Below, piece after piece: positions 12,607-60,346 of a DNA stretch of 64,000 nt; position 1 is the stretch's first letter, and the number at the start of each line of letters is the position of its first letter. The notes beneath the pieces were generated by a model. The model worked only from the letters and a program-made list of their open reading frames with translations. It searched no databases and was not told the origin of the DNA. A program made the translations under genes and the position numbers. The DNA is from an uncultured Candidatus Saccharibacteria bacterium (lineage in GTDB: Bacteria; Patescibacteriota; Saccharimonadia; Saccharimonadales; CAYZZS01): the NCBI GenBank assembly GCA_964620175.1, contig CAZUIL010000001.1:12584-76583 (forward strand), written 5' to 3'.

Positions 12607-12787
12607 TTGACGCCGCTGAATAAACACGGTAAGCTCATATCTAAGAAGTAGTGTAAGCTGGGCAGTGCTCGCATTTATGACAACACGACACCCAAAACAC
12701 CCGCTTAGTTTCCTTCGCGCGCTAAAGGTAAAACAATACACAAACCGTCCAAAACAGCACTAAGTAATAGGGGAGGTGTTATTACGC

Positions 12788-15700: not shown

Positions 15701-16357
15701 GGCCTGCCGGAAGACGGCAAGCAGCAGCTCTATGATGGCCGTACCGGCGAAGCGTTCAAAGAGCGGACAACAGTAGGCAGCATGTACATCATCAAACTGA
15801 ACCACATGATTGCGGATAAGATACACGCCCGCTCAACAGGGCCGTACACCATGGTGACACAACAGCCGCTTGGCGGTAAGGCACAAAACGGCGGTCAGCG
15901 GTTTGGTGAGATGGAAGTCTGGGCGCTCGAAGCCTATGGCGCTGCCAATACGCTCCAGGAAATGCTGACGATTAAATCTGACGACGTATACGGCCGCAGC
16001 AAGGCTTACGAATCAATCATTAAGCGGACAGAAATAGTCGGGCCAAAGGTGCCTGAGAGCTTCAATGTGCTTGTTAAAGAGCTTCAGGGCCTCGGACTTA
16101 AGGTGGATTTGATTTCTTCCAATAAGATAGTGGATGCTGAAGACGTCCTTGCGACCAATATCAAGGATGAAGCGGCCAATCAGGCCGAGATAGAAGTGCC
16201 GCAAGACGAAGTGTCAGAAGTAGACGTTACCGATGATGCAACGACTGATGAGTTTACCGTGCTGGAGCTGGAAGACGAGCTGCCTGCCGGGGTCGCCGCA
16301 ACACAAGATGATGACGACGAGAATGGCAATGAAGAGGACGATAAGGAGGCAGCGTAA
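12788..16357 (+). CDS. rpoB: DNA-directed RNA polymerase subunit beta
   Basis: Full-length RpoB homolog with SD AGGGGAGG upstream. The acidic C-terminal tail is unusual. Confidence 0.95.
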   Translation: MAKTAAKPAAKQATKGKRIFFTETQDILDMPNLVDHQNRSFQWFVEEGLGELLAEISPIDDYTGTKLSLRFKGYRFEDPKMGEADARENNVSYEAPLKATVELTNKVTGEVKEQEIYLGDYPWMTKRGTFVINGAERVVVSQLIRSAGVFFTADTHGTSNLYGAKVIPGRGAWLEFETAANGAIYVKIDRKRKIPVTTLLRALGVSEAKMREVFAHVDQGKLNYLDATLDKDPARGTNEALIEVYRRLRPGDLATVDNARSLLENMFYNFKRFDFSRVGRYKINKRLNLDVPNTIENRVMRLDDLLAIVSEIIRLNNTQEPADDIDSLANRRVKLVGELVQRQFRIGLLRMERNTKDRMSMSEIETVTPGQLINARPIVAAVREFFASSQLSQFMDQINPLSELAHKRRLSSMGPGGLSRERAGFEVRDAHATHYGRICPVETPEGANIGLVLNLAMYARINEYGFIETPYRKVINAVTPAEAAGYTASVDLEDESGKVIVKAGKTITAADAKKLAAVKSQKTWPVQAVVTNKVEFLDAAEEEAAVIASAAEETDQNGHFVNERVSARNRLVFGEVDANDITHMDAARKQVIGSSAGLIPFIEKNYVYRSLMGSNQQRQAVPLISPSSPIVGTGLETAAARNTGQVIAAEGNGEVLKASAQEVVVKYKDGTVTYEPQHFVRSNEGTCINQRVVVNTGDKVKAGDVLIEGMSIADGELALGKDLVVAFMPWSGYNFEDAIVISRKLVEDDTLTSIHIVDFMTEVRETKLGPEIVTRDIPNVSEDALRHLDEDGIVRIGAEVHPGDILVGKITPKGEQELSSEERLLRAIFGEKAKEVRDTSQRMSNGKHGKVVGVKVFSRAHGHELKAGVIMQIQVFVAQMRKIAVGDKLGGRHGNKGVIARILPVEDMPFMEDGTPVDILLNPLGVPSRMNIGQLFETHLGMAARALGMKVASPSFDGVSSEKIRDLLGEAGLPEDGKQQLYDGRTGEAFKERTTVGSMYIIKLNHMIADKIHARSTGPYTMVTQQPLGGKAQNGGQRFGEMEVWALEAYGAANTLQEMLTIKSDDVYGRSKAYESIIKRTEIVGPKVPESFNVLVKELQGLGLKVDLISSNKIVDAEDVLATNIKDEAANQAEIEVPQDEVSEVDVTDDATTDEFTVLELEDELPAGVAATQDDDDENGNEEDDKEAA

Positions 16358-19300
16358 TGCGAAGGTTTTCATACGGCACGGATATAGCTGACTTTGACGC
16401 GGTACGTTTGGCTGTGGCCAGCCCCGAGGACATACTTGATTGGTCCTACGGTGAGGTTACAAAGCCAGAAACTATCAACTACCGCACGCAGAAGCCGGAA
16501 CGGGATGGTTTGTTCTGCGAGCGTATATTTGGGCCTGTCAAAGATATCAATCCCCATGATGCAAAATACAAAGGGGTACGTTCGCGTGAAGCTGCCGTCG
16601 ATAAAAATGGCGAGCTGGTAACAAAAAGCATCGTTCGCCGCGAGCGCATGGGCCATATTAACTTGGCTGTCCCCGTTGCGCACATTTGGTTCCTTCGCGG
16701 CACGCCTTCAGCGATTGGCCTGGTGCTTGGCTTGACGGTCAAAAACCTTGAGCGTATCGCTTACTTTGCCAGCTATGTCATCAAAAGTGTCGACACTGAG
16801 GCACGTGACAAGATGCTGGCTGACAAAGAGGCTGAGTTTGCCGCTGCTAAAGAAGCGATCAAGGCGCGCTATGAAAAAGAGGCTGAGAAGGAAGAGGCTA
16901 ATCTTAAGGCACTTGCCGAATTGCAATCAAAAGAGCTTGACGAGGTGAGCGCCGAATTCGAGCAGTTGAGCGAACAGTTGGGAAGCCTGGAAAAACTGCG
17001 GCTCATCAGTGAAACCGAGTACCGTAGCCTGCCTGACGAGCTCCAGAAGATGATTCAAGTGGGAATGGGTGGCGCTGCTCTTAAAGACCTGCTGAGCGAA
17101 GTGGATCTCGAGCAACTGATTGCTGACTTAACCGCTGAGGCCGAAGAAGCCAAAGGACAGCGCAAGAAGAAGCTGATGAAGCGTCTGCGCTTGCTTGAGA
17201 GCATGCACCGGGCTGGCATTAAACCGAGCAGCCTGTGTGTTTCCGTTTTGCCGGTAATTCCCCCTGATCTGAGACCAATGGTCCAGCTGACAGGCGGCCG
17301 TTTCGCGACGAGCGACCTGAATGACCTCTACCGCCGGGTCATCAACCGCAACAACCGACTGAAGAAGCTGATTGAGCTTAACGCACCAGAAGTCATTCGG
17401 CGCAACGAGCAACGCATGCTGCAAGAAGCGGTTGACGCGCTCATCGACAACAATAATGCCCGCTCTGGCCGTGCAGTTGCCGCGACCGGGCAACGGCGCC
17501 GTCTCAAGAGCTTAAGTGACATGCTAAAGGGTAAGCAAGGCCGCTTTAGGCAAAACTTACTCGGTAAGCGTGTTGACTATTCCGGTCGTTCAGTAATCGT
17601 TGCCGGTCCGGAACTCAAGATTAACCAATGCGGCCTGCCGAAAATGATGGCGCTTGAACTCTTTAAGCCCTTCGTCATCGGCGAACTGATAGCGCGTGAA
17701 CAAGCCCACAATATCAGGAGCGCATCACGCATGATCGAGACCGGCGAAACGGCAGTATGGGACGCACTGGATGAAGTAATCAAGGGCAAGTATGTATTGC
17801 TCAACCGGGCTCCGTCTCTGCACCGCTTGAGTATCCAGGCGTTCCAGCCGGTACTGATTGAGGGTAAGGCAATCCAGCTGCACCCGCTGGTCTGTAAAGG
17901 CTTTAATGCGGACTTTGACGGCGACCAAATGGCTGTCCACTTGCCGCTGTCTGACGAAGCCCAGTGGGAGGCACGGGAAATAATGAGCGCCGCTAAGAAC
18001 CTGCTTAAGCCGGCGGATGGCTCGCCAATCCTCCATATCGAACAAGACATCGTACTCGGCTGTTACTATCTGACCTATGACCGGCCAGGCAGTAATACGA
18101 ATGTACGCACCTACTCAAATGCCGGCGAGGCGTTGATGGCGCTCGACAGCGGTGTAATTACGCTGCAGTCGCCTATTCGTGTGACATTTCGCGGTGAGGT
18201 AAGGGAAACGACTGTCGGAAGAGTACTGTTTAACGAAGTATTCCCCAAAGACTTCCCCTTCCAGAACGAACCGATGACCAAGAAGCGGCTTCAAAGGGTT
18301 ATGGCGCTCGTATTCGAGCGGTACGGGCAAGAACATACGGCAATAATCGCTGACCACCTCAAAGACCTCGGTTTTGAGTACGCGACGAAGTCCGGTATCT
18401 CAATGGGCATGAGTGACTTCAGTGATGTTGTTGGCTATGAAGGCATCATCGGCGAGGGTGAAAAGCGGGCCGCAGAAATTAGCGATCAGTACGACCAGGG
18501 ATTCATCACTGACGAAGAGCGGTACCGGTTAACTATTGAGAACTGGATGGCAGTCAAGGACAACATGCAGGAGCAGCTGAGCGAGCAGTTCAGCAAAGAA
18601 GACTCTGCTATGTCTATCGCTGTTATTTCCGGTGCCCGCGGAAATATCGGACAGGTTATGACCGCTGTCGGGTTGCTCGGCATCGTCACCGACGCCACTG
18701 GCCGTGACATTGAGCTGCCGATTCGGTCCAACTATAAGGTAGGCTTGTCGCCGCTCGAGTATTTTACCGCGACCCGTGGTGCCCGGAAGGGTATGATTGA
18801 CACGGCGCTAAAGACGGCGGACTCCGGCTATCTGACTCGTCGACTTGTTGACGTAAGCCAAGACGTGTTCACAATTGAAGACGACGGCGAATTAGATCCT
18901 GGTTTCGCAATCTACCGCGCAGATGCTAACGAGATTGGTGTTACCTACGCCTCTCGGCTCGAGGGACGGTTTGCCGCAGAGACAATCGGCAAGCACGTCA
19001 AGAAGGGCCAGCTCATTACCCGAGAGATTGCCGAAGCAATCGAGGCAGAGGAATCACTTGACGGTGTCAAGATAATGAGCGTGCTTAGCTGCACGAGCGT
19101 ACGCGGCGTACCGAGGAAGTCTTACGGCCTTGATCCAGCAACTGGCGAACTGGTAGCCGAACGTTACCCTGTCGGCGTCATCGCCGCGCAAAGCATTGGC
19201 GAGCCAGGTACCCAGCTTACCCTGCGCACCTTCCATGGCGGTGGTGTCGCAGGTGACGATATTACCCAAGGTCTGCCTCGCGTCGAAGAACTGTTTGAAG

Positions 19301-20157
19301 TCCGTACGCCAAAAGGCCAGGCATATTTGTCTGAAATTGCCGGGACAGTAACCGCGTGGGAAGAAGGCGACCACTATATAGTGCAAGTTGCCGCTGAGGG
19401 CGAGGACAAGGTACAGCTGCAGCTAGAGGAGAGGACTCCACAAGTAGCAAACGGCACGGAAGTAGGCATCGGAGACGTAGTCGCTTCCCATGACGAAGGC
19501 GCGAGTCCGCTCGTGGCTCCGATAGCCGGGAAGGTCCACTTAACGAAGAAAACAGTCACGATTACCCCGACGAAACAGAGCGTTGTCCGCTATGAGATAC
19601 CTGGTTTCAAGCAGCTCGTGGTAAAAAACAATGATAAGGTTGTTGCCGGCCAGCGGCTGACAAACGGTTCGATTAACCTACATGAGTTGATGCGGTTGCA
19701 GGGCGTTGAAGCCACGCAGCGCTATATCATGAACGAGATATTGCGCATATTTGCTACCCAAGGGCAAAACATTGCCGACAAGCACCTGGAGATTATCGTA
19801 CGACAGATGTTCAGCCGTGTCCAAATCGAAGAAGCTGGTGACAGCGAATTTGTAACGGGTGACGTTGTAAGCAAGTTGGCGGTCGTTGAGGCTAACGAGC
19901 ACCTGATGAAGCAGGGCAAGCAGCCTGCCAAGTACAACCAACTGCTTCTGGGGATTACGAAAGCCAGCCTTTCTACCGACTCATTCCTCAGTGCGGCTAG
20001 CTTCCAGGATACGACCCGTGTGCTTATTGCGGCTGCTACGAGCGGCAAGGTCGATCACCTCTACGGTCTCAAGGAGAATGTCATACTTGGCCGGCCAATA
20101 CCGGTCGGTACTGGGTATAATCCCATTGAAGAGGAAGAAGAGATTGCAACAGGATAG
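16357..20157 (+). CDS. rpoC: DNA-directed RNA polymerase subunit beta'
   Basis: 1266 aa with the NADFDGD catalytic motif. TAATG start/stop overlap with rpoB. Confidence 0.95.
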   Translation: MRRFSYGTDIADFDAVRLAVASPEDILDWSYGEVTKPETINYRTQKPERDGLFCERIFGPVKDINPHDAKYKGVRSREAAVDKNGELVTKSIVRRERMGHINLAVPVAHIWFLRGTPSAIGLVLGLTVKNLERIAYFASYVIKSVDTEARDKMLADKEAEFAAAKEAIKARYEKEAEKEEANLKALAELQSKELDEVSAEFEQLSEQLGSLEKLRLISETEYRSLPDELQKMIQVGMGGAALKDLLSEVDLEQLIADLTAEAEEAKGQRKKKLMKRLRLLESMHRAGIKPSSLCVSVLPVIPPDLRPMVQLTGGRFATSDLNDLYRRVINRNNRLKKLIELNAPEVIRRNEQRMLQEAVDALIDNNNARSGRAVAATGQRRRLKSLSDMLKGKQGRFRQNLLGKRVDYSGRSVIVAGPELKINQCGLPKMMALELFKPFVIGELIAREQAHNIRSASRMIETGETAVWDALDEVIKGKYVLLNRAPSLHRLSIQAFQPVLIEGKAIQLHPLVCKGFNADFDGDQMAVHLPLSDEAQWEAREIMSAAKNLLKPADGSPILHIEQDIVLGCYYLTYDRPGSNTNVRTYSNAGEALMALDSGVITLQSPIRVTFRGEVRETTVGRVLFNEVFPKDFPFQNEPMTKKRLQRVMALVFERYGQEHTAIIADHLKDLGFEYATKSGISMGMSDFSDVVGYEGIIGEGEKRAAEISDQYDQGFITDEERYRLTIENWMAVKDNMQEQLSEQFSKEDSAMSIAVISGARGNIGQVMTAVGLLGIVTDATGRDIELPIRSNYKVGLSPLEYFTATRGARKGMIDTALKTADSGYLTRRLVDVSQDVFTIEDDGELDPGFAIYRADANEIGVTYASRLEGRFAAETIGKHVKKGQLITREIAEAIEAEESLDGVKIMSVLSCTSVRGVPRKSYGLDPATGELVAERYPVGVIAAQSIGEPGTQLTLRTFHGGGVAGDDITQGLPRVEELFEVRTPKGQAYLSEIAGTVTAWEEGDHYIVQVAAEGEDKVQLQLEERTPQVANGTEVGIGDVVASHDEGASPLVAPIAGKVHLTKKTVTITPTKQSVVRYEIPGFKQLVVKNNDKVVAGQRLTNGSINLHELMRLQGVEATQRYIMNEILRIFATQGQNIADKHLEIIVRQMFSRVQIEEAGDSEFVTGDVVSKLAVVEANEHLMKQGKQPAKYNQLLLGITKASLSTDSFLSAASFQDTTRVLIAAATSGKVDHLYGLKENVILGRPIPVGTGYNPIEEEEEIATG

Positions 20158-52853: not shown

Positions 52854-52913
52854 CAACTAACCGTGGGACCCTGACAACTGGATGCCAGGGGCTTGTACCA
52901 CAAAGGAGCAATT

Positions 52914-53906
52914 ATGCCGAAGGCAAAACAACAGGCAGAAGAAGCCGTAGAGGCAATTAAGGGGGAGGTAACTGATGGGAATACTAAAGAAGGCAATCAA
53001 GCTGCGGCTGAAGCAGCTCAAAAACCAGCCGAAGAAGTAAAAACAGCGGAAACTGGCGACAGCCCAGCAAAGAAGCCATTGGCAAAGTCGGGAAAGCGCA
53101 GTGCCAAGGCAATCAAAGAAGCCGAAACATTGGCTGCCAAGAAAGAGCGCAAGGAAGCTGGTCAAGACGAGAAGGACGAAAAGCCTAAACAGGCGCAGAA
53201 ACCAGCCCGTTCAAAGCTGGAACGCCGCGGCAAAAAATTCCGCGAGGCAGCCAAGCTTATTGAGAAGGGCAAAGAATACCCGCTTGAACAAGCAGTGGAG
53301 CTGGCAGCAAAAACCAGTACTACTAAGTTTGACGCCACCGTTGAGCTGCACGTGCGGCTAAGTGTCGACCCAAGGCATTCCGACCAGAATGTACGGGATT
53401 CGCTCATCCTTCCGGCCGGTACGGGCAAAGTGGTGCGCGTAGCTGTCTTTGCCGAGGATGATGACGCCGCGAAAGCCAAGGCGGCCGGCGCTGACCTGGC
53501 GGGCACCGATACTATCACCGGCAAGCTTGAAAAAGGAATCATTGAATTTGACACACTCATCGCCACGCCTGCCGTCATGGCCCGGCTTGGCAAGTTTGCC
53601 CGCCTGCTTGGGCCAAAGGGCCTGATGCCGAACCCTAAGAGCGGCACGGTAACCGGTGACGTCGCGAAGGCTGTCAAGGACGCTAAGGCCGGCAAAGTTG
53701 ATTACCGCGTAGACAGTACCGGGATCGTACACGTCGGCATCGGGAAAGTAAGCTTTGGGGCTGACAAACTGCTTGAGAATGCCAACGCTGTCATCGCCAG
53801 TATCAAGGCTGCCAAGCCAGCCTCTGTAAAGGGAACGTACGTCCGCTCGGCTTTCGTGACAACAAGCATGGGACCAAGCGTCAAAGTCGCTACCGCCGCC
53901 CTCTAG
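52914..53906 (+). CDS. rplA: 50S ribosomal protein L1 with ~110-aa K/A/E-rich N-terminal extension
   Basis: The C-terminal 220 aa are L1. The N-terminus is low-complexity lysine/alanine/glutamate-rich. SD AAGGAG. Confidence 0.9.
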   Translation: MPKAKQQAEEAVEAIKGEVTDGNTKEGNQAAAEAAQKPAEEVKTAETGDSPAKKPLAKSGKRSAKAIKEAETLAAKKERKEAGQDEKDEKPKQAQKPARSKLERRGKKFREAAKLIEKGKEYPLEQAVELAAKTSTTKFDATVELHVRLSVDPRHSDQNVRDSLILPAGTGKVVRVAVFAEDDDAAKAKAAGADLAGTDTITGKLEKGIIEFDTLIATPAVMARLGKFARLLGPKGLMPNPKSGTVTGDVAKAVKDAKAGKVDYRVDSTGIVHVGIGKVSFGADKLLENANAVIASIKAAKPASVKGTYVRSAFVTTSMGPSVKVATAAL

Positions 53907-53956
53907 CAGCCCAGCTCCTGTTGCCTGCCTCAGGCAACTAATGTTTAATAGAGCTT

Positions 53957-54754
53957 ATGCTGCTAATAGGTATGACCGGGCCGATCGGCCACGGCAAGAG
54001 TACGTTGGCTAAGGCACTCAAGAAGATTGAGCCCTCTACCGTACATCTTGAATCCAGCATGGTGATCGCGGAAGTAGCGAATGCCATGCACACGGCATTG
54101 CGAAGCGTGCCCGTTGAAGGCAACCTCGATTTCATTAACGACTGGCTGAAGTCCTTGCCGCCGATTTTAAACCAGGCTGTCCATACCCAGACCAGTTACG
54201 AGCAAATTAGGATTGACCCACAGGCAGTTCAGGAGCACCCGGTAGAATACGAGAAGCTTTTCCTCCATGTAAAGAACATCATTCGGAACCCTGTGCTTGC
54301 CCAGCAGGAAATAACACCTGAAAACAAAGAAGCCTACCGGCCGTTTTTACAGTGGCTTGGCGGTTACCTGGTCGCCAAGATTAACCCACGCCTCTGGTAC
54401 GAAGAGATCATCAGGCGGGCGTATGAAGCAGAGTCCCGTGGCTGCAAATTATGTATTGTCGGCGGCTTGCGCTATCCTACCGACGCACAGCTCATTCGGC
54501 AAGCCGGCGGTTTTATCTTTAAAGTCTACCGGCCGGGACACTTACAAAACGACATACTGGACCCAACCGAACGCGAACGTGACAACATACAGGTCGACAG
54601 TACGATAGTGAGCAACGGCACCATCGAAGACCTGAACAAATGCGCCGTCATCGTGCTGGAGGACGCCAAGCGAAATGAGCTGAGGTCGGTGTACCAGACG
54701 TTGGATTTCCGTGACAAGCCATTGCCAGCCGGACAACCAAGCCCGTCGGCATAG
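53957..54754 (+). CDS. P-loop nucleotide/nucleoside kinase-like protein
   Basis: Walker A GMTGPIGHGKST (of the dephospho-CoA kinase / dNMP kinase type). Sits in a nucleotide-metabolism neighbourhood. Confidence 0.5.
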   Translation: MLLIGMTGPIGHGKSTLAKALKKIEPSTVHLESSMVIAEVANAMHTALRSVPVEGNLDFINDWLKSLPPILNQAVHTQTSYEQIRIDPQAVQEHPVEYEKLFLHVKNIIRNPVLAQQEITPENKEAYRPFLQWLGGYLVAKINPRLWYEEIIRRAYEAESRGCKLCIVGGLRYPTDAQLIRQAGGFIFKVYRPGHLQNDILDPTERERDNIQVDSTIVSNGTIEDLNKCAVIVLEDAKRNELRSVYQTLDFRDKPLPAGQPSPSA

Positions 54755-54832
54755 TTGTAATTTTGAGGCAGGGCTTGCAACCGGTGTTTGACATCTCGTA
54801 CACTATTATTGAATGATTGGAGAGGGTAACTG

Positions 54833-55546
54833 ATGGGGGTGTACAGCAACACTCAGATACGGCAAGCACTTGAGGAGGGGCACATCGTTTGCCGGCCGTT
54901 TAATCCCAAGCACGTCAGCCATGCCAGCCTTGATGTGACGCTCGGCCACTACTATTATCGAACCGGCCAGGCTCAGAAGGGCTATGTGTATAATCCATTC
55001 GATAAATCAGATGTACTGCGCTACTTCAGCGACGTGCACGAGGCAGTAAAGCACAAGACATGGTGTGATGCGAATGGCGTAAAGCTATTAGCCGGTATCC
55101 CGGCAGACCACCCGGTCATCCCCCTAAAGCCAGGCGAGCGGATACTCGCGCATACGCATGAGTTCTTTGGCATTAAACCGCCGGGAGCATATGAGATCAA
55201 GAGCCGTTCAAGCTGGGGACGCAACGGCATTGCGGTTTGTTTTGATGCAGGTTGGGTTGATCCGGGCTACATTAACCGCTTAACACTTGAGATTTACAAC
55301 CTTAATGAACACGAAACTGTACTGCTACCGGTGGGCGAACGCATAGCTCAGGCGGTGTTTTATGAGACCGGTCCGGTTGATGGTAATTATGGAGAGGGAC
55401 GCGACAAGGGCTTTAGCGGTAAGTATCAATCCGGCACCAACCTAGATGTGTTAATAAAGAACTGGACGCCCGATCAAATGCTGCCGCGCGCCTACAAGGA
55501 TACCCGCAGCTTGCCTGAGACAATCAAGGGCCTTAAAGCGCTATGA
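54833..55546 (+). CDS. dcd: dCTP deaminase / dUTPase-superfamily protein
   Basis: AGWVDPGYINRLTLEIYNLN matches the Dcd/Dut jelly-roll active-site motif. SD GGAGAGGG. Confidence 0.65.
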   Translation: MGVYSNTQIRQALEEGHIVCRPFNPKHVSHASLDVTLGHYYYRTGQAQKGYVYNPFDKSDVLRYFSDVHEAVKHKTWCDANGVKLLAGIPADHPVIPLKPGERILAHTHEFFGIKPPGAYEIKSRSSWGRNGIAVCFDAGWVDPGYINRLTLEIYNLNEHETVLLPVGERIAQAVFYETGPVDGNYGEGRDKGFSGKYQSGTNLDVLIKNWTPDQMLPRAYKDTRSLPETIKGLKAL

Positions 55547-55586
55547 CTACTGTAAGCACCCTTTGGGATCTAACGGAGGAAGCCGT

Positions 55587-56369
55587 ATGGTGCGCAGCTT
55601 AGAGAACCTGCCAGCACAGCATGAGTACGAAACGAAATTGCCGGTTCTGCAGGATATCCATAGCATTGATTCGCTGCGCCAGCCGTTCTTACAAACTCAC
55701 TATGCGGAAAAGTTGGCGGCAAATCCGCCCCGCTTCTTCCGCTATGTTTGGGATGACGTTGAGAAGTTTAAAGAGAAGTTTGGTCCAGATGTTGACCCAG
55801 TGCAGCATGGCCCCTACCAAGCCCGTACTATCGCCATCCCTATGATTGAAGCACAGCGCCAGGCAGACAACCTGCCGCAACTGTCAGCGTTTGAGGAAGC
55901 TCATTTTGTAGCCTTGCATGTCGTACATGACGACCACGAGGGGATAACCGGCGATACAGACAAACTCGACCGGACAATTGAAATGGAGCATGCCGAGTTT
56001 GTAGAATGGAAGAGGATTATCACCGAAATACATGGTGAAGCTAAAACTGCAGAGTTTATCAGTATGGCAGTATTATTCATGCATGGTGACGGAGGGTTTA
56101 AAGCTGACTTCTGGGAAGCCAGCGAGGTCTTAGGCTACTACGAAAGCGGTGTCCGTGCCTGGCTACTCGGTGATGAAGACGGCTTAACAGACACCGAACG
56201 TAAAAAGGCACTGACCATGGGTTATTGGGTTGTGGCCCACAATCTTCGCACCCTTGAGTCTGTCAGAGATAAGATCGCGCATGTCGACGAAATCCTTATT
56301 AGTACCGCAGACATAGTGGGGGCTATCTGCAAAGCATCCGACATAACCAGACAGGAGTTGATGCTGTAA
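55587..56369 (+). CDS. HD-domain phosphohydrolase (5'-deoxynucleotidase YfbR-like)
   Basis: The H...HD...D pattern (VQHG ... LHVVHDDHEGITGD). SD GGAGGA before the ATG at 55587. A TTG alternative is at 55563. Confidence 0.5.
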   Translation: MVRSLENLPAQHEYETKLPVLQDIHSIDSLRQPFLQTHYAEKLAANPPRFFRYVWDDVEKFKEKFGPDVDPVQHGPYQARTIAIPMIEAQRQADNLPQLSAFEEAHFVALHVVHDDHEGITGDTDKLDRTIEMEHAEFVEWKRIITEIHGEAKTAEFISMAVLFMHGDGGFKADFWEASEVLGYYESGVRAWLLGDEDGLTDTERKKALTMGYWVVAHNLRTLESVRDKIAHVDEILISTADIVGAICKASDITRQELML

Positions 56370-58690
56370 TGGGCACGACACAGGGCACATTTATCGTTAT
56401 AGAAGGTACCGATGGGTCAGGCAAGGGCACGCAGTTCAAGCTGCTTGTCGACAAGCTGAAAGATGAGGGGTATGACGTCGCAGGCTTTGATTTCCCGCGC
56501 TATGACGAGCCTTCTAGCTATTTTGTCCGTGAGTATCTAAACGGCAACTATGGTACAGCCGAAGAGGTCGGCCCGTACACCGCCTCGATGTTCTATGCAC
56601 TTGACCGTTACCAAGCGGCACCTGATATCCAGCGCGCGCTTGATGATGGCAAAGTAGTAGTTGCGAACCGTTTCACCGGCTCCAGCATGGCGCACCAGGG
56701 CACCAAGTTCCATAATGCCGAAGAGCGCCGCGGCTATTTTATCTGGCTTGATAACCTTGAGTACCAGATGCTTGGCATACCGCGCCCGGACAAGAGCTTT
56801 GTGCTGCGAGTACCCGCCGATACGGCACAAAAGCTCGTCGACCAAAAGGAGAAGCGAAGCTATACTGACAAGAAACGTGACATCCATGAAGCTGATATCA
56901 ATCACCTCACCATGGCGGTGGAGGTGTATGATGACCTCTGCCAACTCTTTCCGCGTGACTTTTCACGCATCGATTGCGTCCGCAATGATGAGCTTCTCGA
57001 TGTCACAACTATTAGTAAACTACTGTGGGAGAAAGTACAGCCTATGATGCCGCCAAAGCCCGATGGGACGGATCGAAAAAAAAATAAACCAAAAGAAGTG
57101 ATTTCAGATAATCCATTCGTAAAAAAGACTGCTGATGGCTACCAGGTTACTGAGCAAGGCAAGCAGTTCCTGGGCGAAGCAGTCACCGATGTGGACGGCG
57201 ATGTGTATGCCTTTAGCGAAACGTTAAGTCCTGTCACGATTGCGGCAGCAATGGCAAGACTAAGCCGCCGGGGGGATGACATGCGTATCACCATTCTTGA
57301 CGAGTTCGCCGCATCGCTTGGCAAGGACGAACAGCTGCTGCAGCGGGTCATCACGGCATATGGCGACGACTCTGTGCAGCAACTCGTCGGCCAGCATGTC
57401 GTAGTAGAAGGGGCGAGCAATTTACTGACGAAGAAGCTGGAGTGGGGCAGGCTTGCGGCTTATCTTGAGCAGTCCACCCGTTATATTTATTTTGACCAAA
57501 AGGACAGTTCCGGTAATTACCGTTACTACACGCCGAACACCCTCGTTGGTAAGGCTGCAAGGCACTACAACCAGCAGATGGATCGGATATTTGAGCTGTA
57601 TTCAAAGATGGTGCGCGAACTGACTAAATACGTGCAGGACAAATCCACGGTTCCGGAGTCTGAGCGCGATATTGCCTGGAAGGGAGCTACTCGTGCCCAA
57701 GCTTGTGACGCTATACGGCCAGTGCTGCCGGTGGCAACTAAATCAACAGTCGGCATCTACGCATCTGGCCAGGCGCTGGAGAGCCTGATAATGCACCTGC
57801 TAAGCGACGAACTGCAGGAAGCAAGGGATACCGGTGAGAAGATGCTGCGTGAGGCCCGGAAAGTTATACCTACCTTCTTGGAGCGGGCCGACAAGCCGGA
57901 CCGGGGCGGTGCAGCCATTGCCTACCGGAGCAATACCCGCTCAGCCGTGAAGCAGCTGGCGAATGGGCTCCTAAAAGAGACTTATGGTTCGTCTGTTGAA
58001 CCGGTCCAGCTGTTAAGTGCCTGGCCGCGGAATGAACTCGACCTAGTGCCCGATATGCTCTATGAGCATAGCAGCTTGCCGCTCAGCGAGATCATTAGCC
58101 AAGCCCAGGGATGGGATTATGATAAAAAGGTCAGGGTATTCAATGCCTATATCGGCGAACGGCTCAATCGGCGCCACCGGCCTGGCCGTGCGCTGGAAAA
58201 GGCCCACTATAGTTGGGATCTGGTCTGCGACTACGGGATTTTCCGTGACCTCCAGCGGCACCGGATGGTTGACGACCTCGCCTGGCAAATGCTGACTCCC
58301 CGCTACGGCTATAATGTCCCGACACTAGTCGAAGAGGCAAACTTAACTGAGGAGTTTCAGGAATGTTTTGACATTAGCCTGGAGCTTTATAGCTACTTAC
58401 AATCTGAAGGGTATGAGCTTGAAGCCCAGTACGCGACGCTCCTCGGCCATAAGATGCGCTGGAAAGTTACCTACAACGCCCGTGAGGCGTTCCATCTCCA
58501 TGAGTTACGCACCAGTCCGCAGGGACACCCCGGCTACCGTAAATTGGTATCGGAAATGCATGAAAAGCTAGCCGAAGTACACCCGTTGCTGGCTGACGCT
58601 ATGAAGTTCGTTAACCGCGATGAGGATCCTGAACTGACCCGCTTGGCGGCGGAGCGCTACACACAGTTCAAGTTAAAGCAACTAACTTAA
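56369..58690 (+). CDS. tmk-thyX: Thymidylate kinase fused to tandem flavin-dependent thymidylate synthase (ThyX) domains
   Basis: N-terminal FIVIEGTDGSGKGTQ P-loop with the DRY...SMAHQG Tmk motifs. Two ThyX-like repeats follow: the first is degenerate (WGR...STRY), the second keeps the RHR signature (FRDLQRHRMVDD), NAREAFHLHELR and a C-terminal helix. Confidence 0.7.
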   Translation: MGTTQGTFIVIEGTDGSGKGTQFKLLVDKLKDEGYDVAGFDFPRYDEPSSYFVREYLNGNYGTAEEVGPYTASMFYALDRYQAAPDIQRALDDGKVVVANRFTGSSMAHQGTKFHNAEERRGYFIWLDNLEYQMLGIPRPDKSFVLRVPADTAQKLVDQKEKRSYTDKKRDIHEADINHLTMAVEVYDDLCQLFPRDFSRIDCVRNDELLDVTTISKLLWEKVQPMMPPKPDGTDRKKNKPKEVISDNPFVKKTADGYQVTEQGKQFLGEAVTDVDGDVYAFSETLSPVTIAAAMARLSRRGDDMRITILDEFAASLGKDEQLLQRVITAYGDDSVQQLVGQHVVVEGASNLLTKKLEWGRLAAYLEQSTRYIYFDQKDSSGNYRYYTPNTLVGKAARHYNQQMDRIFELYSKMVRELTKYVQDKSTVPESERDIAWKGATRAQACDAIRPVLPVATKSTVGIYASGQALESLIMHLLSDELQEARDTGEKMLREARKVIPTFLERADKPDRGGAAIAYRSNTRSAVKQLANGLLKETYGSSVEPVQLLSAWPRNELDLVPDMLYEHSSLPLSEIISQAQGWDYDKKVRVFNAYIGERLNRRHRPGRALEKAHYSWDLVCDYGIFRDLQRHRMVDDLAWQMLTPRYGYNVPTLVEEANLTEEFQECFDISLELYSYLQSEGYELEAQYATLLGHKMRWKVTYNAREAFHLHELRTSPQGHPGYRKLVSEMHEKLAEVHPLLADAMKFVNRDEDPELTRLAAERYTQFKLKQLT

Positions 58691-58962
58691 ATACCGTCCT
58701 CTCTCATTCTTATGAAGGCCATGATTGCTTGCTGTCCGAGACTTGTTTCAATAGATTTAACTTCAATATCTACTTGATTCAAGTGGCTGTCCAATTGTTC
58801 CACAATGTCTCGCAGATGCCAGTGCGGCGTCTGGCCATTCAGTTCAATTTCCAGACCGTTATTTTCACGAATGTAATTAATAAACTCACCACCAGTCAGT
58901 CGGGATTCTGCTTCAGGTTCTTTTTTACTACCAATTGTGTGTTGTCTCTCAAAAACTGACAT
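58687..58962 (-). CDS. Hypothetical protein (minus strand, convergent with tmk-thyX)
   Basis: 91 aa with SD GGAG 6-9 nt upstream of the ATG. No family recognised. Confidence 0.45.
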   Translation of the reverse strand: MSVFERQHTIGSKKEPEAESRLTGGEFINYIRENNGLEIELNGQTPHWHLRDIVEQLDSHLNQVDIEVKSIETSLGQQAIMAFIRMREDGI

Positions 58963-59238
58963 TTTGTAACTCCGAACGTTATTTATACGCTTTTACACAC
59001 TAAAATCAACTGTCTGCTTGGAATGGCAATTGGAGAGAATTAGGAAATGCGAGCTTATAAAAGCTCAAGCAAAGTTCCTATAAGAGACGGTAGGCCCTGA
59101 GAGACGCAAGAAAAGTTGCGCAACCATTCTCAGAGAGGCGAACAGCGCTATGTACGCTAATCAGGGTCAATGAATTACCCTGCCGCCCGCTACGGAACAT
59201 CGTTGTCCGATAGCCCTACCTGACAGCTTGTGCATCGG

Positions 59239-59439
59239 CTACTTCCTACAAAGTCGAGCGAATTCACGCTCCCTTCGCTGCAACCGGTTTTGCCAATCCG
59301 GCACCAATTCCGGCCGTTCGACAGCCAGTTGTGACTGCAACAGTGTCCTGTACCTGCAAATCTGCTTTTCCAGGCCACGCAAGTTTTCCATACGTCGCAT
59401 TACCTTTACATCAGGGTTCCAAGACGCGTCGGCAACCAT
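59239..59439 (-). CDS. Hypothetical 66-aa Arg/Gln-rich protein
   Basis: SD GGAGAGG before the ATG at 59439 (the TTG alternative at 59457 gives 72 aa). The RBS lies inside one arm of a 12-bp inverted repeat. Confidence 0.4.
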   Translation of the reverse strand: MVADASWNPDVKVMRRMENLRGLEKQICRYRTLLQSQLAVERPELVPDWQNRLQRREREFARLCRK

Positions 59440-59547
59440 TGGTCTCTTCCTCTCCAATTGCTAATGTGCTGTCCCCCCATTGGGACCTGGGAAACTGAGT
59501 TCCCATGGCTAGACTCGCAATAAGTCCAGGCACGGAAGCGCAGCTGT

Positions 59548-59592
59548 TAAAAAAACCGGCTCTTTTGGTTGGAGCCGGTTATTGATTTTCGT
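59548..59592. terminator. Bidirectional intrinsic terminator
   Basis: A7 run, then 9-bp stem AACCGGCTC/GAGCCGGTT with a 9-nt loop, then a T-rich tail. Functional on both strands. Confidence 0.6.
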
Positions 59593-59916
59593 TCTGCTTT
59601 TTAGCGTATAACTACTCCAACCACTTATTTCGCCATAATGAGCACGAGACCATACTTGCGGCATGGCATGTGCTGTGCGAATAGTGTTTGAAGTTTTGTT
59701 ATCACGAATATCAACTTAACGCGCACGGCGCCTATTGTCAAGCATGTTCCTGCAGTGTGTTGACAAATTTCAGCGGTAGGCACAGTATTAGAGCTATGGC
59801 ACGCCGCAATACAGGCATGACTATTACAGCGCACCGATTTGTGCGGTGTTGATAGTAGTTGCCAAAACAGACGCTAAAAACCCCGCAAGGGGTGATTTTA
59901 TTTAAAGGGAGAGATT

Positions 59917-60147
59917 ATGGAAAACCAGCCACCGCTCGACAAGTCAAATGAAATAGTAACTGTTGATGGCCCGACCGCAGCTGAGTTACTGGGGTCTCGG
60001 GCGCTTCGTCAGCTGCAAGCCCACGAAGCAGGACAAACAAGCGAAATGGTTGAATACGGCAACGGCCGCCGGCTCAAAGTAGGCAATACAATCTTTATTC
60101 CATTTCGAAGCAACAAGGAACCTAATGCTGACCAGAGTGAGTATTGA
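59917..60147 (+). CDS. Hypothetical 76-aa protein
   Basis: SD AGGGAGAG. A CCCC-GCAA-GGGG hairpin lies immediately upstream. Confidence 0.45.
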   Translation: MENQPPLDKSNEIVTVDGPTAAELLGSRALRQLQAHEAGQTSEMVEYGNGRRLKVGNTIFIPFRSNKEPNADQSEY

Positions 60148-60270
60148 CACTAGGGCCCAAATAATTTAGAATGTAGCAGATTACCAAAGACAGTAGCGTT
60201 TGCCTACGAGCGAATTAAGAAGGCTACCGAGGTTCAACAAGCAAGTACGTATAGTCGTAGAGTTGTAAAC

Positions 60271-60297
60271 GTCTTTGGTAGCCCAAAGGCTTTTTTT
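60271..60297 (+). terminator. L10 (rplJ) leader attenuator hairpin
   Basis: GTCTTTGG-tagc-CCAAAGGC followed by T7, 50 nt upstream of rplJ. Confidence 0.55.
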
Positions 60298-60346
60298 ATG
60301 GCTCGTTAACAAACAAGGTCGATCAGTAAACTAACAGAGGTTTCAA

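What the first reader, a model, noticed from the sequence alone, without database searches (positions are those of the whole stretch)
56369..58690. Single 773-aa polypeptide fusing thymidylate kinase to a tandem (pseudo-dimeric) ThyX
The N-terminal 210 aa carry all Tmk motifs (P-loop GTDGSGKGT, DRY, and the lid region SMAHQG). The remaining ~560 aa align as two ThyX-like repeats. The first has a degenerate signature (KKLEWGRLAAYLEQSTRY). The second has the intact RHR motif (QRHRMVDD), NAR, and the C-terminal ELR helix. A covalent Tmk-ThyX fusion would channel dUMP to dTMP to dTDP in one protein. The half-degenerate tandem ThyX resembles the architectures in which one active site is built from duplicated domains. 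I cannot confirm that this fusion has been described.
Basis: partly seen in the sequence, partly recalled or inferred. Interest (0 to 1): 0.6.

Follow-up and report, generated by a model that had tools for sequence, protein, structure and literature searches.

The report
Thymidylate kinase fused to double ThyX
This is a real gene, standard in Saccharibacteria, that joins the enzyme making the DNA building block dTMP (in an unusual doubled form) to the enzyme that phosphorylates it; databases already list thousands of copies, but I found no experimental study of it.

Summary
The ORF at 56369..58690 (+) is real and encodes 773 aa. It has a thymidylate kinase domain (res 1-226), a disordered linker of about 20 aa, and two Thy1/ThyX domains (res 285-505 and 545-773). 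Each piece passes its Pfam threshold on its own. The fusion is not an artefact. More than 7,600 database proteins match, the 120 best all full length with both domains. All 80 Saccharibacteria loci fetched carry an uninterrupted ORF of at least 760 codons in the same slot between rplA and rplJ. JGI already names these proteins 'thymidylate kinase/thymidylate synthase ThyX'. The doubled ThyX also exists unfused in DPANN archaea, other bacteria and phages, and was noted in 2009 as uncharacterised. The two repeats keep complementary halves of the ThyX catalytic set. I infer that a dimer mimics the ThyX tetramer with two complete and two vestigial sites. Comparative evidence supports real thymidylate synthase activity. 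Unfused relatives keep 12-13 of 13 catalytic residues. Seventeen divergent Tmk-fused relatives keep only 0-8, and 7 of 7 examined have ThyA and/or DHFR nearby. Substrate channelling is untested. Verdict: a genuine, lineage-typical, unstudied variant of known enzymes.

The parts
56369..58690 (+). Whole ORF: 773-aa Tmk-ThyX-ThyX fusion, stop codon TAA at 58688-58690
56369..57046 (+). Thymidylate kinase domain (res 1-226). P-loop E12-T21 at 56402-56431; R80 at 56606-56608; N100-R101-F102 (the DR[YHF] position) at 56666-56674; basic lid at res 158-176 (56840-56896)
   Evidence: Pfam 76.7 bits. phmmer to Mtb TMPK E 1.8e-16 with alignment. Foldseek TM 0.85 to 1n5k. 55% identical to a free-standing Tmk in a relative.
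57047..57109 (+). Pro/Lys-rich flexible linker (res 227-247), including an A9 run
   Evidence: pLDDT below 50 at res 236-245. No Pfam hit. Length and sequence vary across 80 homologues and the A-run is not conserved.
57110..57220 (+). N-terminal beta-hairpin and helix element of the tandem-ThyX module (res 248-284)
   Evidence: Unfused tandem ThyX proteins start aligning here. Secondary structure from the model.
57221..57883 (+). ThyX repeat 1 (res 285-505). It keeps R361, E367, S369, R371, Y372 (motif at 57431-57484) and R450. It lacks the R78/H79, N163/R165 and R174 equivalents.
   Evidence: Pfam Thy1 69.4 bits. Family profile vs Mtb ThyX 3gwc/2af6, E 4e-16. Residue table.
57884..58000 (+). 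Helical connector between the two repeats (res 506-544)
   Evidence: Model secondary structure, helix 513-534
58001..58687 (+). ThyX repeat 2 (res 545-773). It keeps R626 and R630-H631-R632 (58244-58306), N703-A-R705 and R714 (58469-58528), and H603. Q687 replaces the R147 equivalent, and the Ser/Arg/Tyr loop is poorly conserved in the family.
   Evidence: Pfam Thy1 59.6 bits. hhalign vs T. maritima ThyX: probability 94.6%, E 1.5e-8, 195 columns. Residue table.
54833..55546 (+). dCTP deaminase-like gene (237 aa), the likely supplier of dUTP/dUMP. It lies immediately upstream of the fusion in 75 of 80 related loci.
   Evidence: PF22769 E 6.6e-32. TIGR02274 89.1 bits vs cut-off 92.8. Synteny.
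53957..54754 (+). DNMK-like (phage T4 gp1-type) deoxynucleotide monophosphate kinase gene in the same block
   Evidence: PF21448 32.1 bits, cut-off 27.1. Found in 23 of 80 loci.
55563..56369 (+). Unannotated 268-aa ORF inserted between the DCD-like gene and the fusion. Its stop overlaps the fusion's ATG.
   Evidence: No Pfam, NCBIfam or PDB hit. Present in 1 of 80 related loci.

Best explanation
The gene encodes a bifunctional enzyme for two consecutive steps of dTTP synthesis in a Saccharibacteria (Patescibacteria) chromosome.

The C-terminal 525 residues are a 'duplicated' flavin-dependent thymidylate synthase (dUMP + CH2-THF + NADPH -> dTMP). The N-terminal 226 residues are an M. tuberculosis-type dTMP kinase (dTMP + ATP -> dTDP). 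The dCTP deaminase-like gene just upstream plausibly supplies the uracil nucleotide.

The two ThyX repeats are an ancient internal duplication, and each keeps only part of the catalytic set:
- Repeat 1 keeps the active-site loop (E367, S369, R371, Y372 = T. maritima E86, S88, R90, Y91) and R450 (= R147).
- Repeat 2 keeps R626, R630-H631-R632 (= R74, R78-H79-R80), N703/R705 (= N163/R165) and R714 (= R174).

Canonical ThyX is a homotetramer whose four sites are each built from three subunits. I therefore infer that two copies of this protein form a pseudo-tetramer with two complete and two vestigial sites, matched one-to-one with the two Tmk domains.

Shown here: domain identities, fold, conservation pattern, genomic context and phyletic spread. 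Inferred: enzymatic activities, oligomeric state, number of live sites. The benefit of the fusion is also inferred. I favour fixed 1:1 stoichiometry and proximity over true channelling.
For: Domains and fold. The AF2 model built with 83 diverse sequences has pLDDT 92.3. The Tmk fold reaches TM 0.85 to Mtb TMPK. The tandem module superposes on viral double-length thymidylate synthases (TM 0.80 over 461 residues, E 1e-15).

Not an artefact: 7,621 homologues, the top 120 all 765-797 aa with both Pfam domains. At least 546 confirmed matches in species-representative genomes, and 80 of 80 fetched loci have an uninterrupted ORF of at least 760 codons.

Complementary residues are family-wide. In 83 representatives at <=50% identity to one another, repeat 1 has S369 in 69/83, R371 in 68, Y372 in 68, E367 in 75 and R450 in 70. 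Repeat 2 has R630 in 70, H631 in 68, R632 in 68, N703 in 71, R705 in 75 and R714 in 66. Of 61 unfused tandem ThyX representatives, 54 keep 13/13 of these positions and 7 keep 12/13, at a median 38% identity to ours.

The roles of these residues come from the literature:
- S88, R90 and Y91 are critical, and R174 activates dUMP (PMC8316439; PMC11940539).
- dUMP contacts in Mtb ThyX are listed in PMC9571937.
- Active sites lie at the interface of three monomers (PMC5954106; PMC11940539).

Rosetta-stone context: the closest unfused relative (P0125, 55% identical) sits in a cluster of ThyX2, nucleoside deoxyribosyltransferase, separate Tmk, NUDIX, DCD and SHMT. That free Tmk is 55% identical to our Tmk domain and also reads N-R-Y at the DRx motif.

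Natural loss-of-constraint test: 17 divergent Tmk-fused representatives keep only 0-8 of 13 catalytic residues. All 7 of their loci that I looked up carry ThyA and/or DHFR, 6 of them with dCMP deaminase, within 8 kb. Only 2 of 80 intact-type loci do, and the 64-kb window has none. Fisher p = 6e-9, ignoring phylogeny.
Against: - No experiment exists on this protein or, as far as I found, on any Tmk-ThyX fusion.
- Both enzymatic halves fall below NCBI's equivalog cut-offs: thyX TIGR02170 51.6 vs 87.9; dTMP kinase TIGR00041 69.1 vs 83.25; NF005923 124.4 vs 193.
- Neither repeat alone has the RHRx7S ThyX motif.
- The Tmk DR[YHF] motif reads NRF.
- I had no model coordinates and no multimer prediction, so the 'two complete sites' claim rests on symmetry logic. 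The split of residues between repeats does not map trivially onto what I could read about which subunit contributes which residue. For example, the R147 equivalent is kept in repeat 1 while the R174 equivalent is kept in repeat 2.
- No SHMT or folate gene lies in the 64-kb window.
- A thyA elsewhere in the genome cannot be excluded.
Confidence: 0.75

Rival explanations
1. The fusion is an artefact: a frameshift, sequencing error or assembly join near 57000-57100 has merged a tmk gene with a thyX gene.
For: An A9 homopolymer sits in the linker (57074-57082), and both alternative frames terminate within a few codons.
Against: 80 of 80 independently assembled Saccharibacteria loci have one ORF of at least 760 codons across the junction. 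The 120 best of more than 7,600 matching database proteins are all full length. Base composition is uniform across the junction. The A-run is not conserved, so the ORF does not depend on it.
Confidence: 0.01
2. The protein is functionally only a thymidylate kinase. The double ThyX module is a catalytically dead scaffold or regulatory domain, as appears to be the case in ThyA-bearing relatives.
For: 17 of 21 other Tmk-fused cluster representatives have lost 5-13 of 13 ThyX catalytic residues yet keep the module. Their repeat 2 is better conserved (median 40% pairwise) than their Tmk domain (25%). Some positions are invariant only in fused proteins: N555, Y584, R645, S675. This hints at a second, non-catalytic role.
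Against: The window protein keeps 13/13 catalytic positions, as do 79 of the 80 close homologues checked; the 80th was not assessed, because its longest ORF was a different gene. It has a DCD-like gene rather than dCMP deaminase, ThyA or DHFR next to it. No ThyA or DHFR lies in the 64 kb.
Confidence: 0.07
3. The double ThyX module catalyses a related but different flavin/folate-dependent pyrimidine C5 modification (for example on dCMP or UMP, or a hydroxymethylation), not dTMP synthesis.
For: The module is divergent. It scores below the thyX equivalog cut-off, and single-sequence searches against solved ThyX structures find nothing. Enzymes of the ThyX fold acting on other nucleotides are known (my own knowledge, not tested here).
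Against: The dUMP-contacting and activating residues are all retained collectively. The module is fused to a dTMP kinase. In relatives it clusters with Tmk, DCD and SHMT. Its catalytic residues decay specifically where ThyA/DHFR are present, which is what functional equivalence to ThyA predicts.
Confidence: 0.07
4. The point of the fusion is true substrate channelling of dTMP from the ThyX site to the Tmk site, rather than mere co-expression, stoichiometry or proximity.
For: The two domains catalyse consecutive reactions. The fusion is fixed across a whole bacterial class. Fusion-specific invariant residues on repeat 2 could form a docking surface for Tmk.
Against: The linker is disordered and varies from 14 to 36 aa. 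pTM is only 0.69 despite pLDDT 92, which suggests an undefined inter-domain arrangement. The fusion persists when ThyX is dead, so it cannot exist only for channelling. Close relatives manage with separate genes.
Confidence: 0.2

Closest known systems
Canonical homotetrameric ThyX / flavin-dependent thymidylate synthase (T. maritima TM0449, PDB 1kq4/1o26; M. tuberculosis ThyX, PDB 2af6/3gwc)
   Same: Same Thy1 fold (PF02511), present in both repeats. Collectively it keeps the same catalytic residues: R78/H79/R80, E86, S88, R90, Y91, R147, N163/R165, R174. Presumably the same FAD/NADPH/CH2-THF chemistry.
   Different: Two divergent ThyX domains sit in one chain. No single domain has the full RHRx7S motif. 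I predict 2 rather than 4 complete sites per pseudo-tetramer. It scores below the TIGR02170 cut-off and is fused to Tmk.
Unfused duplicated (tandem) ThyX of about 520-560 aa: Chloroflexi (Valas & Bourne 2009, PMC3224940), DPANN archaea, other Patescibacteria, and phages such as Microcystis phage LMM01 and Tunturiibacter phage Tunturi_5
   Same: Same two-repeat module with the same complementary residue pattern (12-13 of 13 positions kept). Identity to ours is 34-55%.
   Different: No N-terminal Tmk domain. They lack the fusion-specific invariant residues N555, Y584 and S675. A DPANN subgroup still keeps the N163/R165 equivalents in repeat 1.
M. tuberculosis-type thymidylate kinase (PDB 1g3u/1n5k; NCBIfam NF005923)
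   Same: Best sequence match (E 1.8e-16) and best structural match (TM 0.85). Shared features are the P-loop with D15 and K19, the R80 and R101 equivalents of Mtb R74 and R95, D171/E174, and a basic lid.
   Different: The DR[YHF] motif reads N-R-F. P-loop G20 replaces Mtb R14. It scores below the equivalog cut-off and is covalently attached to ThyX2.
Tmk fused to a degenerate ThyX2 module in ThyA/DHFR-bearing Saccharimonadales (e.g. HSW74759.1 = P0182, annotated 'hypothetical protein')
   Same: Same architecture, length (717-802 aa) and genomic slot between rplA and rplJ. Identity to ours in the ThyX2 region is 32-50%.
   Different: Only 0-8 of 13 catalytic residues are kept. The neighbours are dCMP deaminase, ThyA and DHFR instead of DCD.
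Bifunctional DHFR-TS of protozoa and plants (analogy only, from general knowledge)
   Same: Two consecutive enzymes of the thymidylate cycle are fused in one chain that acts as a dimer. It is the textbook case for asking whether a fusion channels its intermediate.
   Different: Unrelated folds (ThyA and DHFR), a different pair of reactions, and no pseudo-oligomeric duplication.

Membership tests
ThyX / FDTS (Pfam PF02511 Thy1) | Significant match to the Thy1 domain model above Pfam's gathering score | tested here: met
   Repeat 1 scores 69.4 bits and repeat 2 scores 59.6 bits, each scanned alone; the cut-off is 24.8.
ThyX / FDTS | ThyX signature RHRx7S within one domain (Myllykallio et al. 2002, from my own knowledge; T. 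maritima R78-H79-R80...S88, sequence verified) | tested here: not met
   Repeat 1 reads W359-G360-R361-x7-S369. Repeat 2 reads R630-H631-R632-x7-Q640, or x10-T643 in the hhalign register. The motif is complete only when the two repeats are combined.
ThyX / FDTS | dUMP-binding and activating residues (E86, S88, R90, Y91, R147, R174) and flavin-side residues (R78, H79, N163, R165) | tested here: met
   All are present collectively. E367, S369, R371, Y372 and R450 lie in repeat 1. R630, H631, N703, R705 and R714 lie in repeat 2. They are conserved at 66-75 of 83 across the family.
ThyX / FDTS | NCBIfam equivalog TIGR02170 (thyX) trusted cut-off | tested here: not met
   51.6 bits for the whole protein and 54.1 bits for the tandem part alone, vs a cut-off of 87.9. 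The unfused relative P0125 also fails, at 45.8 bits.
ThyX / FDTS | Homotetramer with four active sites, each formed by three subunits | not testable with these tools
   Only a monomer model was available, without coordinates. A pseudo-tetramer formed by a dimer is inferred.
ThyX / FDTS | FAD-, NADPH- and CH2-THF-dependent conversion of dUMP to dTMP | not testable with these tools
   Indirect support only: decay of the catalytic residues coincides with ThyA/DHFR in 7 of 7 loci, and SHMT and Tmk cluster with the unfused form.
Thymidylate kinase (Pfam PF02223; TIGR00041) | Match to the Thymidylate_kin model above the gathering score, and the Tmk fold | tested here: met
   76.7 bits vs a cut-off of 27. 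Foldseek TM 0.83-0.87 to Mtb and T. thermophilus Tmk.
Thymidylate kinase | P-loop GxxGxGK[ST] with the Asp that contacts the dTMP 3'-OH | tested here: met
   E12-G-T-D15-G-S-G-K19-G-T21, aligned to Mtb E6-G-V-D9-G-A-G-K13-R-T15. D15, K19 and T21 are invariant in 35 close homologues.
Thymidylate kinase | DR[YHF] motif after strand 3 | tested here: inconclusive
   It reads N100-R101-F102. The Arg is kept but Asp is replaced by Asn. The same N-R-Y occurs in a free-standing Tmk of a relative, so this looks like a lineage trait rather than decay.
Thymidylate kinase | NCBIfam equivalog cut-offs (TIGR00041; NF005923) | tested here: not met
   69.1 vs 83.25 and 124.4 vs 193. The free-standing relative fails in the same way, at 71.1 and 121.2.
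Duplicated (tandem) ThyX | Two Thy1 repeats in one chain with the complementary residue pattern (13 positions) | tested here: met
   The window protein has 13/13. 61 of 61 unfused representatives keep 12-13. Structural superposition on viral tandem thymidylate synthases gives TM 0.80.

The most novel reading that the evidence does not exclude
Saccharibacteria carry a 'thymidylate island' between rplA and rplJ that exists in two states.

In the state seen in this window, a Tmk-ThyX2 fusion is the cell's thymidylate synthase. It works as a dimer whose pseudo-tetrameric ThyX core has only two live active sites, paired 1:1 with two Tmk domains.

In lineages that acquired dCMP deaminase, ThyA and DHFR, the ThyX2 module lost its catalytic residues. 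It is nevertheless retained, fused and under purifying selection, as a pseudoenzyme that Tmk needs as an oligomerisation scaffold or a nucleotide-sensing regulator. This would be a ThyX-to-ThyA displacement caught with its fossil still attached.
Probability: 0.45. Interest if true: 0.65.

Novelty: new variant of a known kind. Interest (0 to 1): 0.45.

Why it matters
ThyX is absent from humans and is pursued as an antibacterial target. Its unusual active site, shared by three subunits, is still being worked out.

A naturally 'heterodimerised' ThyX, in which each repeat has kept a different half of the catalytic set, is an evolutionary dissection of which subunit must contribute which residue. 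It also gives a ready-made system for asking whether all four sites of the tetramer are needed.

The covalent link to Tmk is fixed across Saccharibacteria, which are ultra-small epibionts with minimal nucleotide metabolism, and so marks dTMP-to-dTDP as a tightly coupled step there.

The relatives with a dead ThyX2 still fused to Tmk next to ThyA and DHFR offer a clean case of non-orthologous displacement and pseudoenzyme retention.

None of this changes textbook biochemistry, and the architecture is already visible in databases. The value is as a well-defined, testable variant rather than a new kind of system.

Tried and rejected
- Single-sequence phmmer of each ThyX half against PDB sequences found no ThyX. 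Only a family profile reached solved ThyX structures.
- BLASTP of half 1 against half 2 found nothing significant. Profile-profile comparison was needed.
- The first AF2 run, with 35 close homologues, was poor (pLDDT 69.6). It was superseded by the 83-sequence run.
- The search for related loci with the diverse alignment A2 failed because it had no conserved 7-10 column stretch. A1 was used instead, which biases the 80 loci toward close relatives.
- The A9 run in the linker was tested as a possible programmed-slippage site that could yield free Tmk. It is not conserved in 80 homologous loci, so I rejected the idea.
- Neighbourhoods of two DPANN tandem ThyX genes show no adjacent Tmk, so that clade gives no Rosetta-stone signal.
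- Literature searches for a Tmk-ThyX fusion, for ThyX in Saccharibacteria or Patescibacteria, and for tandem ThyX found only the 2009 remark.
- The key paper on subunit contributions (Leduc 2004, PMC409905) is not held. I could therefore not assign each catalytic residue to its subunit of origin.
- My recollection that Chlamydia trachomatis ThyX is double-length (about 529 aa, 60.9 kDa) and has been assayed biochemically could not be verified here. Basta et al. 2012 did express and assay the C. trachomatis enzyme. I give the length only as memory.
- The 268-aa neighbour gave no hit in Pfam, NCBIfam or PDB.


Full report
**1. The observation**

The ORF listing finds one ATG-to-TAA ORF at 56369..58690 (+) encoding 773 aa, exactly as reported. 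Its ATG overlaps the stop of the upstream ORF by one base (TAATG), and an AGGAG lies upstream.

Pfam on the whole protein gives Thymidylate_kin at res 11-171 (73.3 bits) and Thy1 with two stretches (121.9 bits). When the protein is cut into pieces, each domain passes alone:

| Piece | Family | Score |
|---|---|---|
| res 1-211 | Thymidylate_kin | 76.7 bits |
| res 281-526 | Thy1 | 69.4 bits (E 4.6e-19) |
| res 527-773 | Thy1 | 59.6 bits (E 4.5e-16) |
| res 212-280 | none | - |

So the Tmk + ThyX + ThyX reading is correct and far beyond chance.

In the alignment to M. tuberculosis TMPK, the family's DR[YHF] motif corresponds to N100-R101-F102. The 'DRY' at 79-81 is the equivalent of Mtb R74. 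'SMAHQG' aligns with the thymine-side segment (Mtb S99-Y103), not the lid. The lid is the basic stretch DQKEKRSYTDKKRDIHEAD (res 158-176), which is also the low-confidence loop in the models.

**2. Not an artefact**

The window is a Saccharibacteria core chromosomal region. It carries rpoB, rpoC, fusA and tuf, then secE, nusG, rplK and rplA upstream of the finding, and the L10 leader, rplJ, rplL and dnaX downstream. GC content is flat across the gene.

A search of 5.8 billion proteins returned 7,621 homologues. The 120 best are all 765-797 aa and carry PF02223 + PF02511. They come from many independent assemblies, and several are named by JGI 'thymidylate kinase/thymidylate synthase ThyX' or by NCBI 'FAD-dependent thymidylate synthase [Candidatus Saccharimonadales]'.

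In one genome per species, 546 of the first 600 pattern matches encode a relative. All 80 loci kept are Saccharibacteria/Saccharimonadia MAGs with a full-length match. Every one has an uninterrupted ORF of at least 760 codons.

The A9 run in the linker (57074-57082) is not conserved, and the linker varies from 14 to 36 residues. A frameshift or assembly join is excluded.

**3. Anatomy**

With an alignment of 83 diverse relatives, AlphaFold2 gives pLDDT 92.3 and pTM 0.69. The only disordered internal segment is res 236-245.

- The Tmk domain (res 1-226) superposes on Mtb TMPK at TM 0.85.
- Unfused relatives begin aligning at about res 247-260. The module therefore starts with a small hairpin-helix element (res 248-284).
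- This is followed by repeat 1 (res 285-505), a helical connector (res 506-544) and repeat 2 (res 545-773).
- The whole tandem module superposes on two viral double-length thymidylate synthases. One is A0A6B7EUB9 (461 aa, TM 0.80, 510 columns, E 1e-15). The other is the Microcystis phage LMM01 enzyme (491 aa).

The repeats are ancient. BLASTP sees nothing between them, but profiles align in register at E 4e-5. A family profile matches Mtb and Corynebacterium ThyX through repeat 1 (E 4e-16). It matches H. pylori and T. maritima ThyX through repeat 2 (E 1e-5 to 1e-3).

**4. Complementary half-sites**

I verified my recalled T. maritima ThyX sequence against PDB 1kq4 (219 of 220 residues identical). 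I then aligned it to each repeat profile: repeat 2 at probability 94.6% and E 1.5e-8; repeat 1 at E 3.7e-4. Counts are across 83 representatives.

| T. maritima residue | Repeat 1 | Repeat 2 |
|---|---|---|
| R74 | K355 | R626 (74/83) |
| R78 | lost: W/R/D at 359 | R630 (70/83) |
| H79 | lost: G360 | H631 (68/83) |
| R80 | R361 (72/83) | R632 (68/83) |
| E86 | E367 (75/83) | lost |
| S88 / R90 / Y91 | S369 (69) / R371 (68) / Y372 (68) | T643 / R645 / Y646 in ours, weakly conserved (R in 33/83, Y in 22/83) |
| R147 | R450 (70/83) | Q687 |
| N163 | S466 | N703 (71/83) |
| R165 | Q468 | R705 (75/83) |
| R174 | L478 | R714 (66/83) |

The literature identifies S88, R90 and Y91 as critical and R174 as the activator of dUMP (PMC8316439; PMC11940539). 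It lists the Mtb dUMP contacts R199, R107, R95, Q103, R87 and R172 (PMC9571937). It places each of the four sites at the interface of three monomers (PMC5954106; PMC11940539).

In a D2 tetramer built from two chains that each supply one repeat-1 and one repeat-2 position, symmetry forces two classes of site, two of each. The complementary retention means one class can be complete and the other cannot.

This is an inference. I had no coordinates or multimer model, and I could not read the paper that assigns residues to subunits. The split of the R147 and R174 equivalents between repeats means the mapping is not trivially the two-subunit picture.

**5. Is it a working thymidylate synthase?**

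Three lines of comparative evidence say yes.

(a) Among 61 unfused tandem ThyX representatives (median 38% identity to ours), 54 keep 13 of 13 key positions and 7 keep 12 of 13. These include DPANN archaea annotated as FAD-dependent thymidylate synthase.

(b) The closest unfused relative (P0125, 545 aa, 55% identical) lies in a cluster of ThyX2, nucleoside deoxyribosyltransferase, Tmk (a separate 224-aa gene), NUDIX, DCD and SHMT. SHMT makes the CH2-THF that ThyX consumes. That free Tmk is 55% identical to our Tmk domain and shares the N-R-Y variant of the DRx motif. The D-to-N change is therefore a lineage trait, not decay.

(c) Of 21 other Tmk-fused cluster representatives, 4 keep 13 of 13. 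The other 17 keep only 0-8 of 13, although their ThyX2 region is 32-50% identical to ours.

I looked up 7 of those 17 loci. All 7 have ThyA and/or DHFR within 8 kb, 6 of them also with dCMP deaminase, in the same rplA...rplJ slot. Only 2 of 80 intact-type loci (L060, L078) have ThyA and DHFR nearby, and both still have intact motifs. The 64-kb window has none. Fisher p = 6e-9. The flanks were unequal and phylogeny is ignored.

DHFR is what a ThyA-based cycle needs and a ThyX-based one does not (established biochemistry). Catalytic constraint on ThyX2 therefore disappears exactly where ThyA is available, which is what functional equivalence predicts. The window protein has the intact pattern, as do 79 of the 80 close homologues; in the 80th locus the longest ORF was a different gene, so it was not assessed.

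**6. Context in the window**

A terminator-like hairpin follows rplA (53920-53938). A promoter-like site (TTGACA-18-AATGAT, 54788-54817) precedes the DCD-like gene. The block reads:

- DNMK-like kinase (53957-54754)
- dCTP deaminase-like gene (54833-55546; PF22769 E 6.6e-32; TIGR02274 89.1 vs cut-off 92.8)
- an unannotated 268-aa ORF (55563-56369)
- the fusion

The DCD-like gene is immediately upstream of the fusion in 75 of 80 related loci. The 268-aa ORF occurs in only 1 of 80.

The likely pathway is dCTP -> dUTP/dUMP (DCD-like; whether it is bifunctional is unknown) -> dTMP (ThyX2) -> dTDP (Tmk).

**7. Why fused?**

Channelling is possible but unsupported:

- The linker is disordered and variable.
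- pTM is modest.
- Close relatives use separate genes.
- The fusion persists when ThyX2 is catalytically dead.

In those dead versions, repeat 2 is more conserved (median 40% pairwise identity) than the Tmk domain itself (25%). Four repeat-2 positions are invariant in all or nearly all 22 fused proteins but rare in unfused ones: N555 in 4 of 61, Y584 in 0 of 61, R645 in 11 of 61 and S675 in 2 of 61.

This suggests that ThyX2 also serves Tmk structurally or as a regulator. For example, it could dimerise Tmk, which is normally a homodimer. I rate fixed stoichiometry and proximity plus a scaffold role as more likely than a true tunnel.

**8. Comparison with the known**

The protein works like ThyX plus Tmk. 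As a family member it passes the Pfam domain tests and has the catalytic residues collectively. It fails the single-domain RHRx7S signature and all three NCBIfam equivalog cut-offs.

The duplicated ThyX was noted for Chloroflexi in 2009 as 'not characterized' (PMC3224940). I found no paper on the Tmk fusion or on ThyX in Saccharibacteria. The library is open-access only.

From memory, unverified here, Chlamydia trachomatis ThyX is also double-length, and it has been assayed. Basta et al. 2012 did express it.

**9. Verdict**

This is a real, lineage-typical, database-annotated but experimentally unstudied architecture: a new variant of known enzymes, not a new kind of system.

It is the family-wide complementary half-sites, and the ThyA-linked decay of a ThyX2 module that nevertheless stays fused to Tmk.

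Noticed in passing
window 55563..56369 (+): A 268-aa ORF with no Pfam, NCBIfam or PDB match sits between the DCD-like gene and the fusion, and its stop overlaps the fusion's ATG. It is present in only 1 of 80 related loci. It contains 'VHDDHEGITGD', which resembles the HDxxExxxGD motif of YfbR/HDDC2-type HD-domain 5'-deoxynucleotidases. That resemblance is from memory and untested.
   Followed up: partly
related loci L087, L089, L090, L091, L092, L093, L094 (fusion gene at about 6001/8001 onward in each): Divergent Tmk-ThyX2 fusions have lost 5-13 of 13 ThyX catalytic residues but keep the module. Their repeat 2 is more conserved than their Tmk domain. They always sit near ThyA and/or DHFR, usually with dCMP deaminase, in the same rplA...rplJ slot. 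This looks like a ThyX-to-ThyA displacement with a retained pseudoenzyme.
   Followed up: yes
window 58001..58687 (repeat 2): N555, Y584, R645, S675: These positions are invariant in 20-22 of 22 Tmk-fused representatives, including the catalytically dead ones, but rare in 61 unfused tandem ThyX proteins (4, 0, 11 and 2 of 61). They could form a Tmk-docking or second-function surface, or they could simply mark the clade.
   Followed up: partly
related loci L060 and L078: Two close homologues (about 69% identity) keep all ThyX catalytic residues yet already have ThyA and DHFR within 6 kb. They may be intermediates in the displacement.
   Followed up: partly
window 52893..53906 (+): Ribosomal protein L1 is 337 aa, with the L1 domain only at res 140-328, so it has an N-terminal extension of about 140 aa. 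L1 genes in related loci are also 303-366 aa. The TTG start was not verified.
   Followed up: no
window 60166..60305 (+): An L10 leader RNA (RF00557, 47 bits vs a gathering score of 44) is preceded by a near-consensus promoter-like site, TTGACA-17-TAGAAT, at 60144..60172. A four-gene nucleotide-metabolism block splits the usual rplKA-rplJL arrangement, and rpoB/rpoC lie 40 kb upstream (12776..20157) rather than after rplL.
   Followed up: partly
window 57074..57082: An A9 homopolymer lies inside the inter-domain linker, and both alternative frames stop within a few codons. It is not conserved in 80 homologous loci, so it is probably incidental to Lys codons rather than a slippage device.
   Followed up: yes
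window 53957..54754 (+): A T4 gp1-like deoxynucleotide monophosphate kinase (DNMK, PF21448, 32 bits) lies directly after rplA. This phage-type dNMP kinase in a bacterial core region is detectable in 23 of 80 related loci.
   Followed up: no
window 58690..60140: About 1.4 kb between the fusion and the L10 leader holds only short ORFs without family matches: 91 aa on the minus strand at 58687..58962 and 76 aa at 59917..60147. There is a strong terminator-like hairpin at 59554..59580. In related loci this interval holds variable genes such as M20 peptidase and threonine dehydratase.
   Followed up: no
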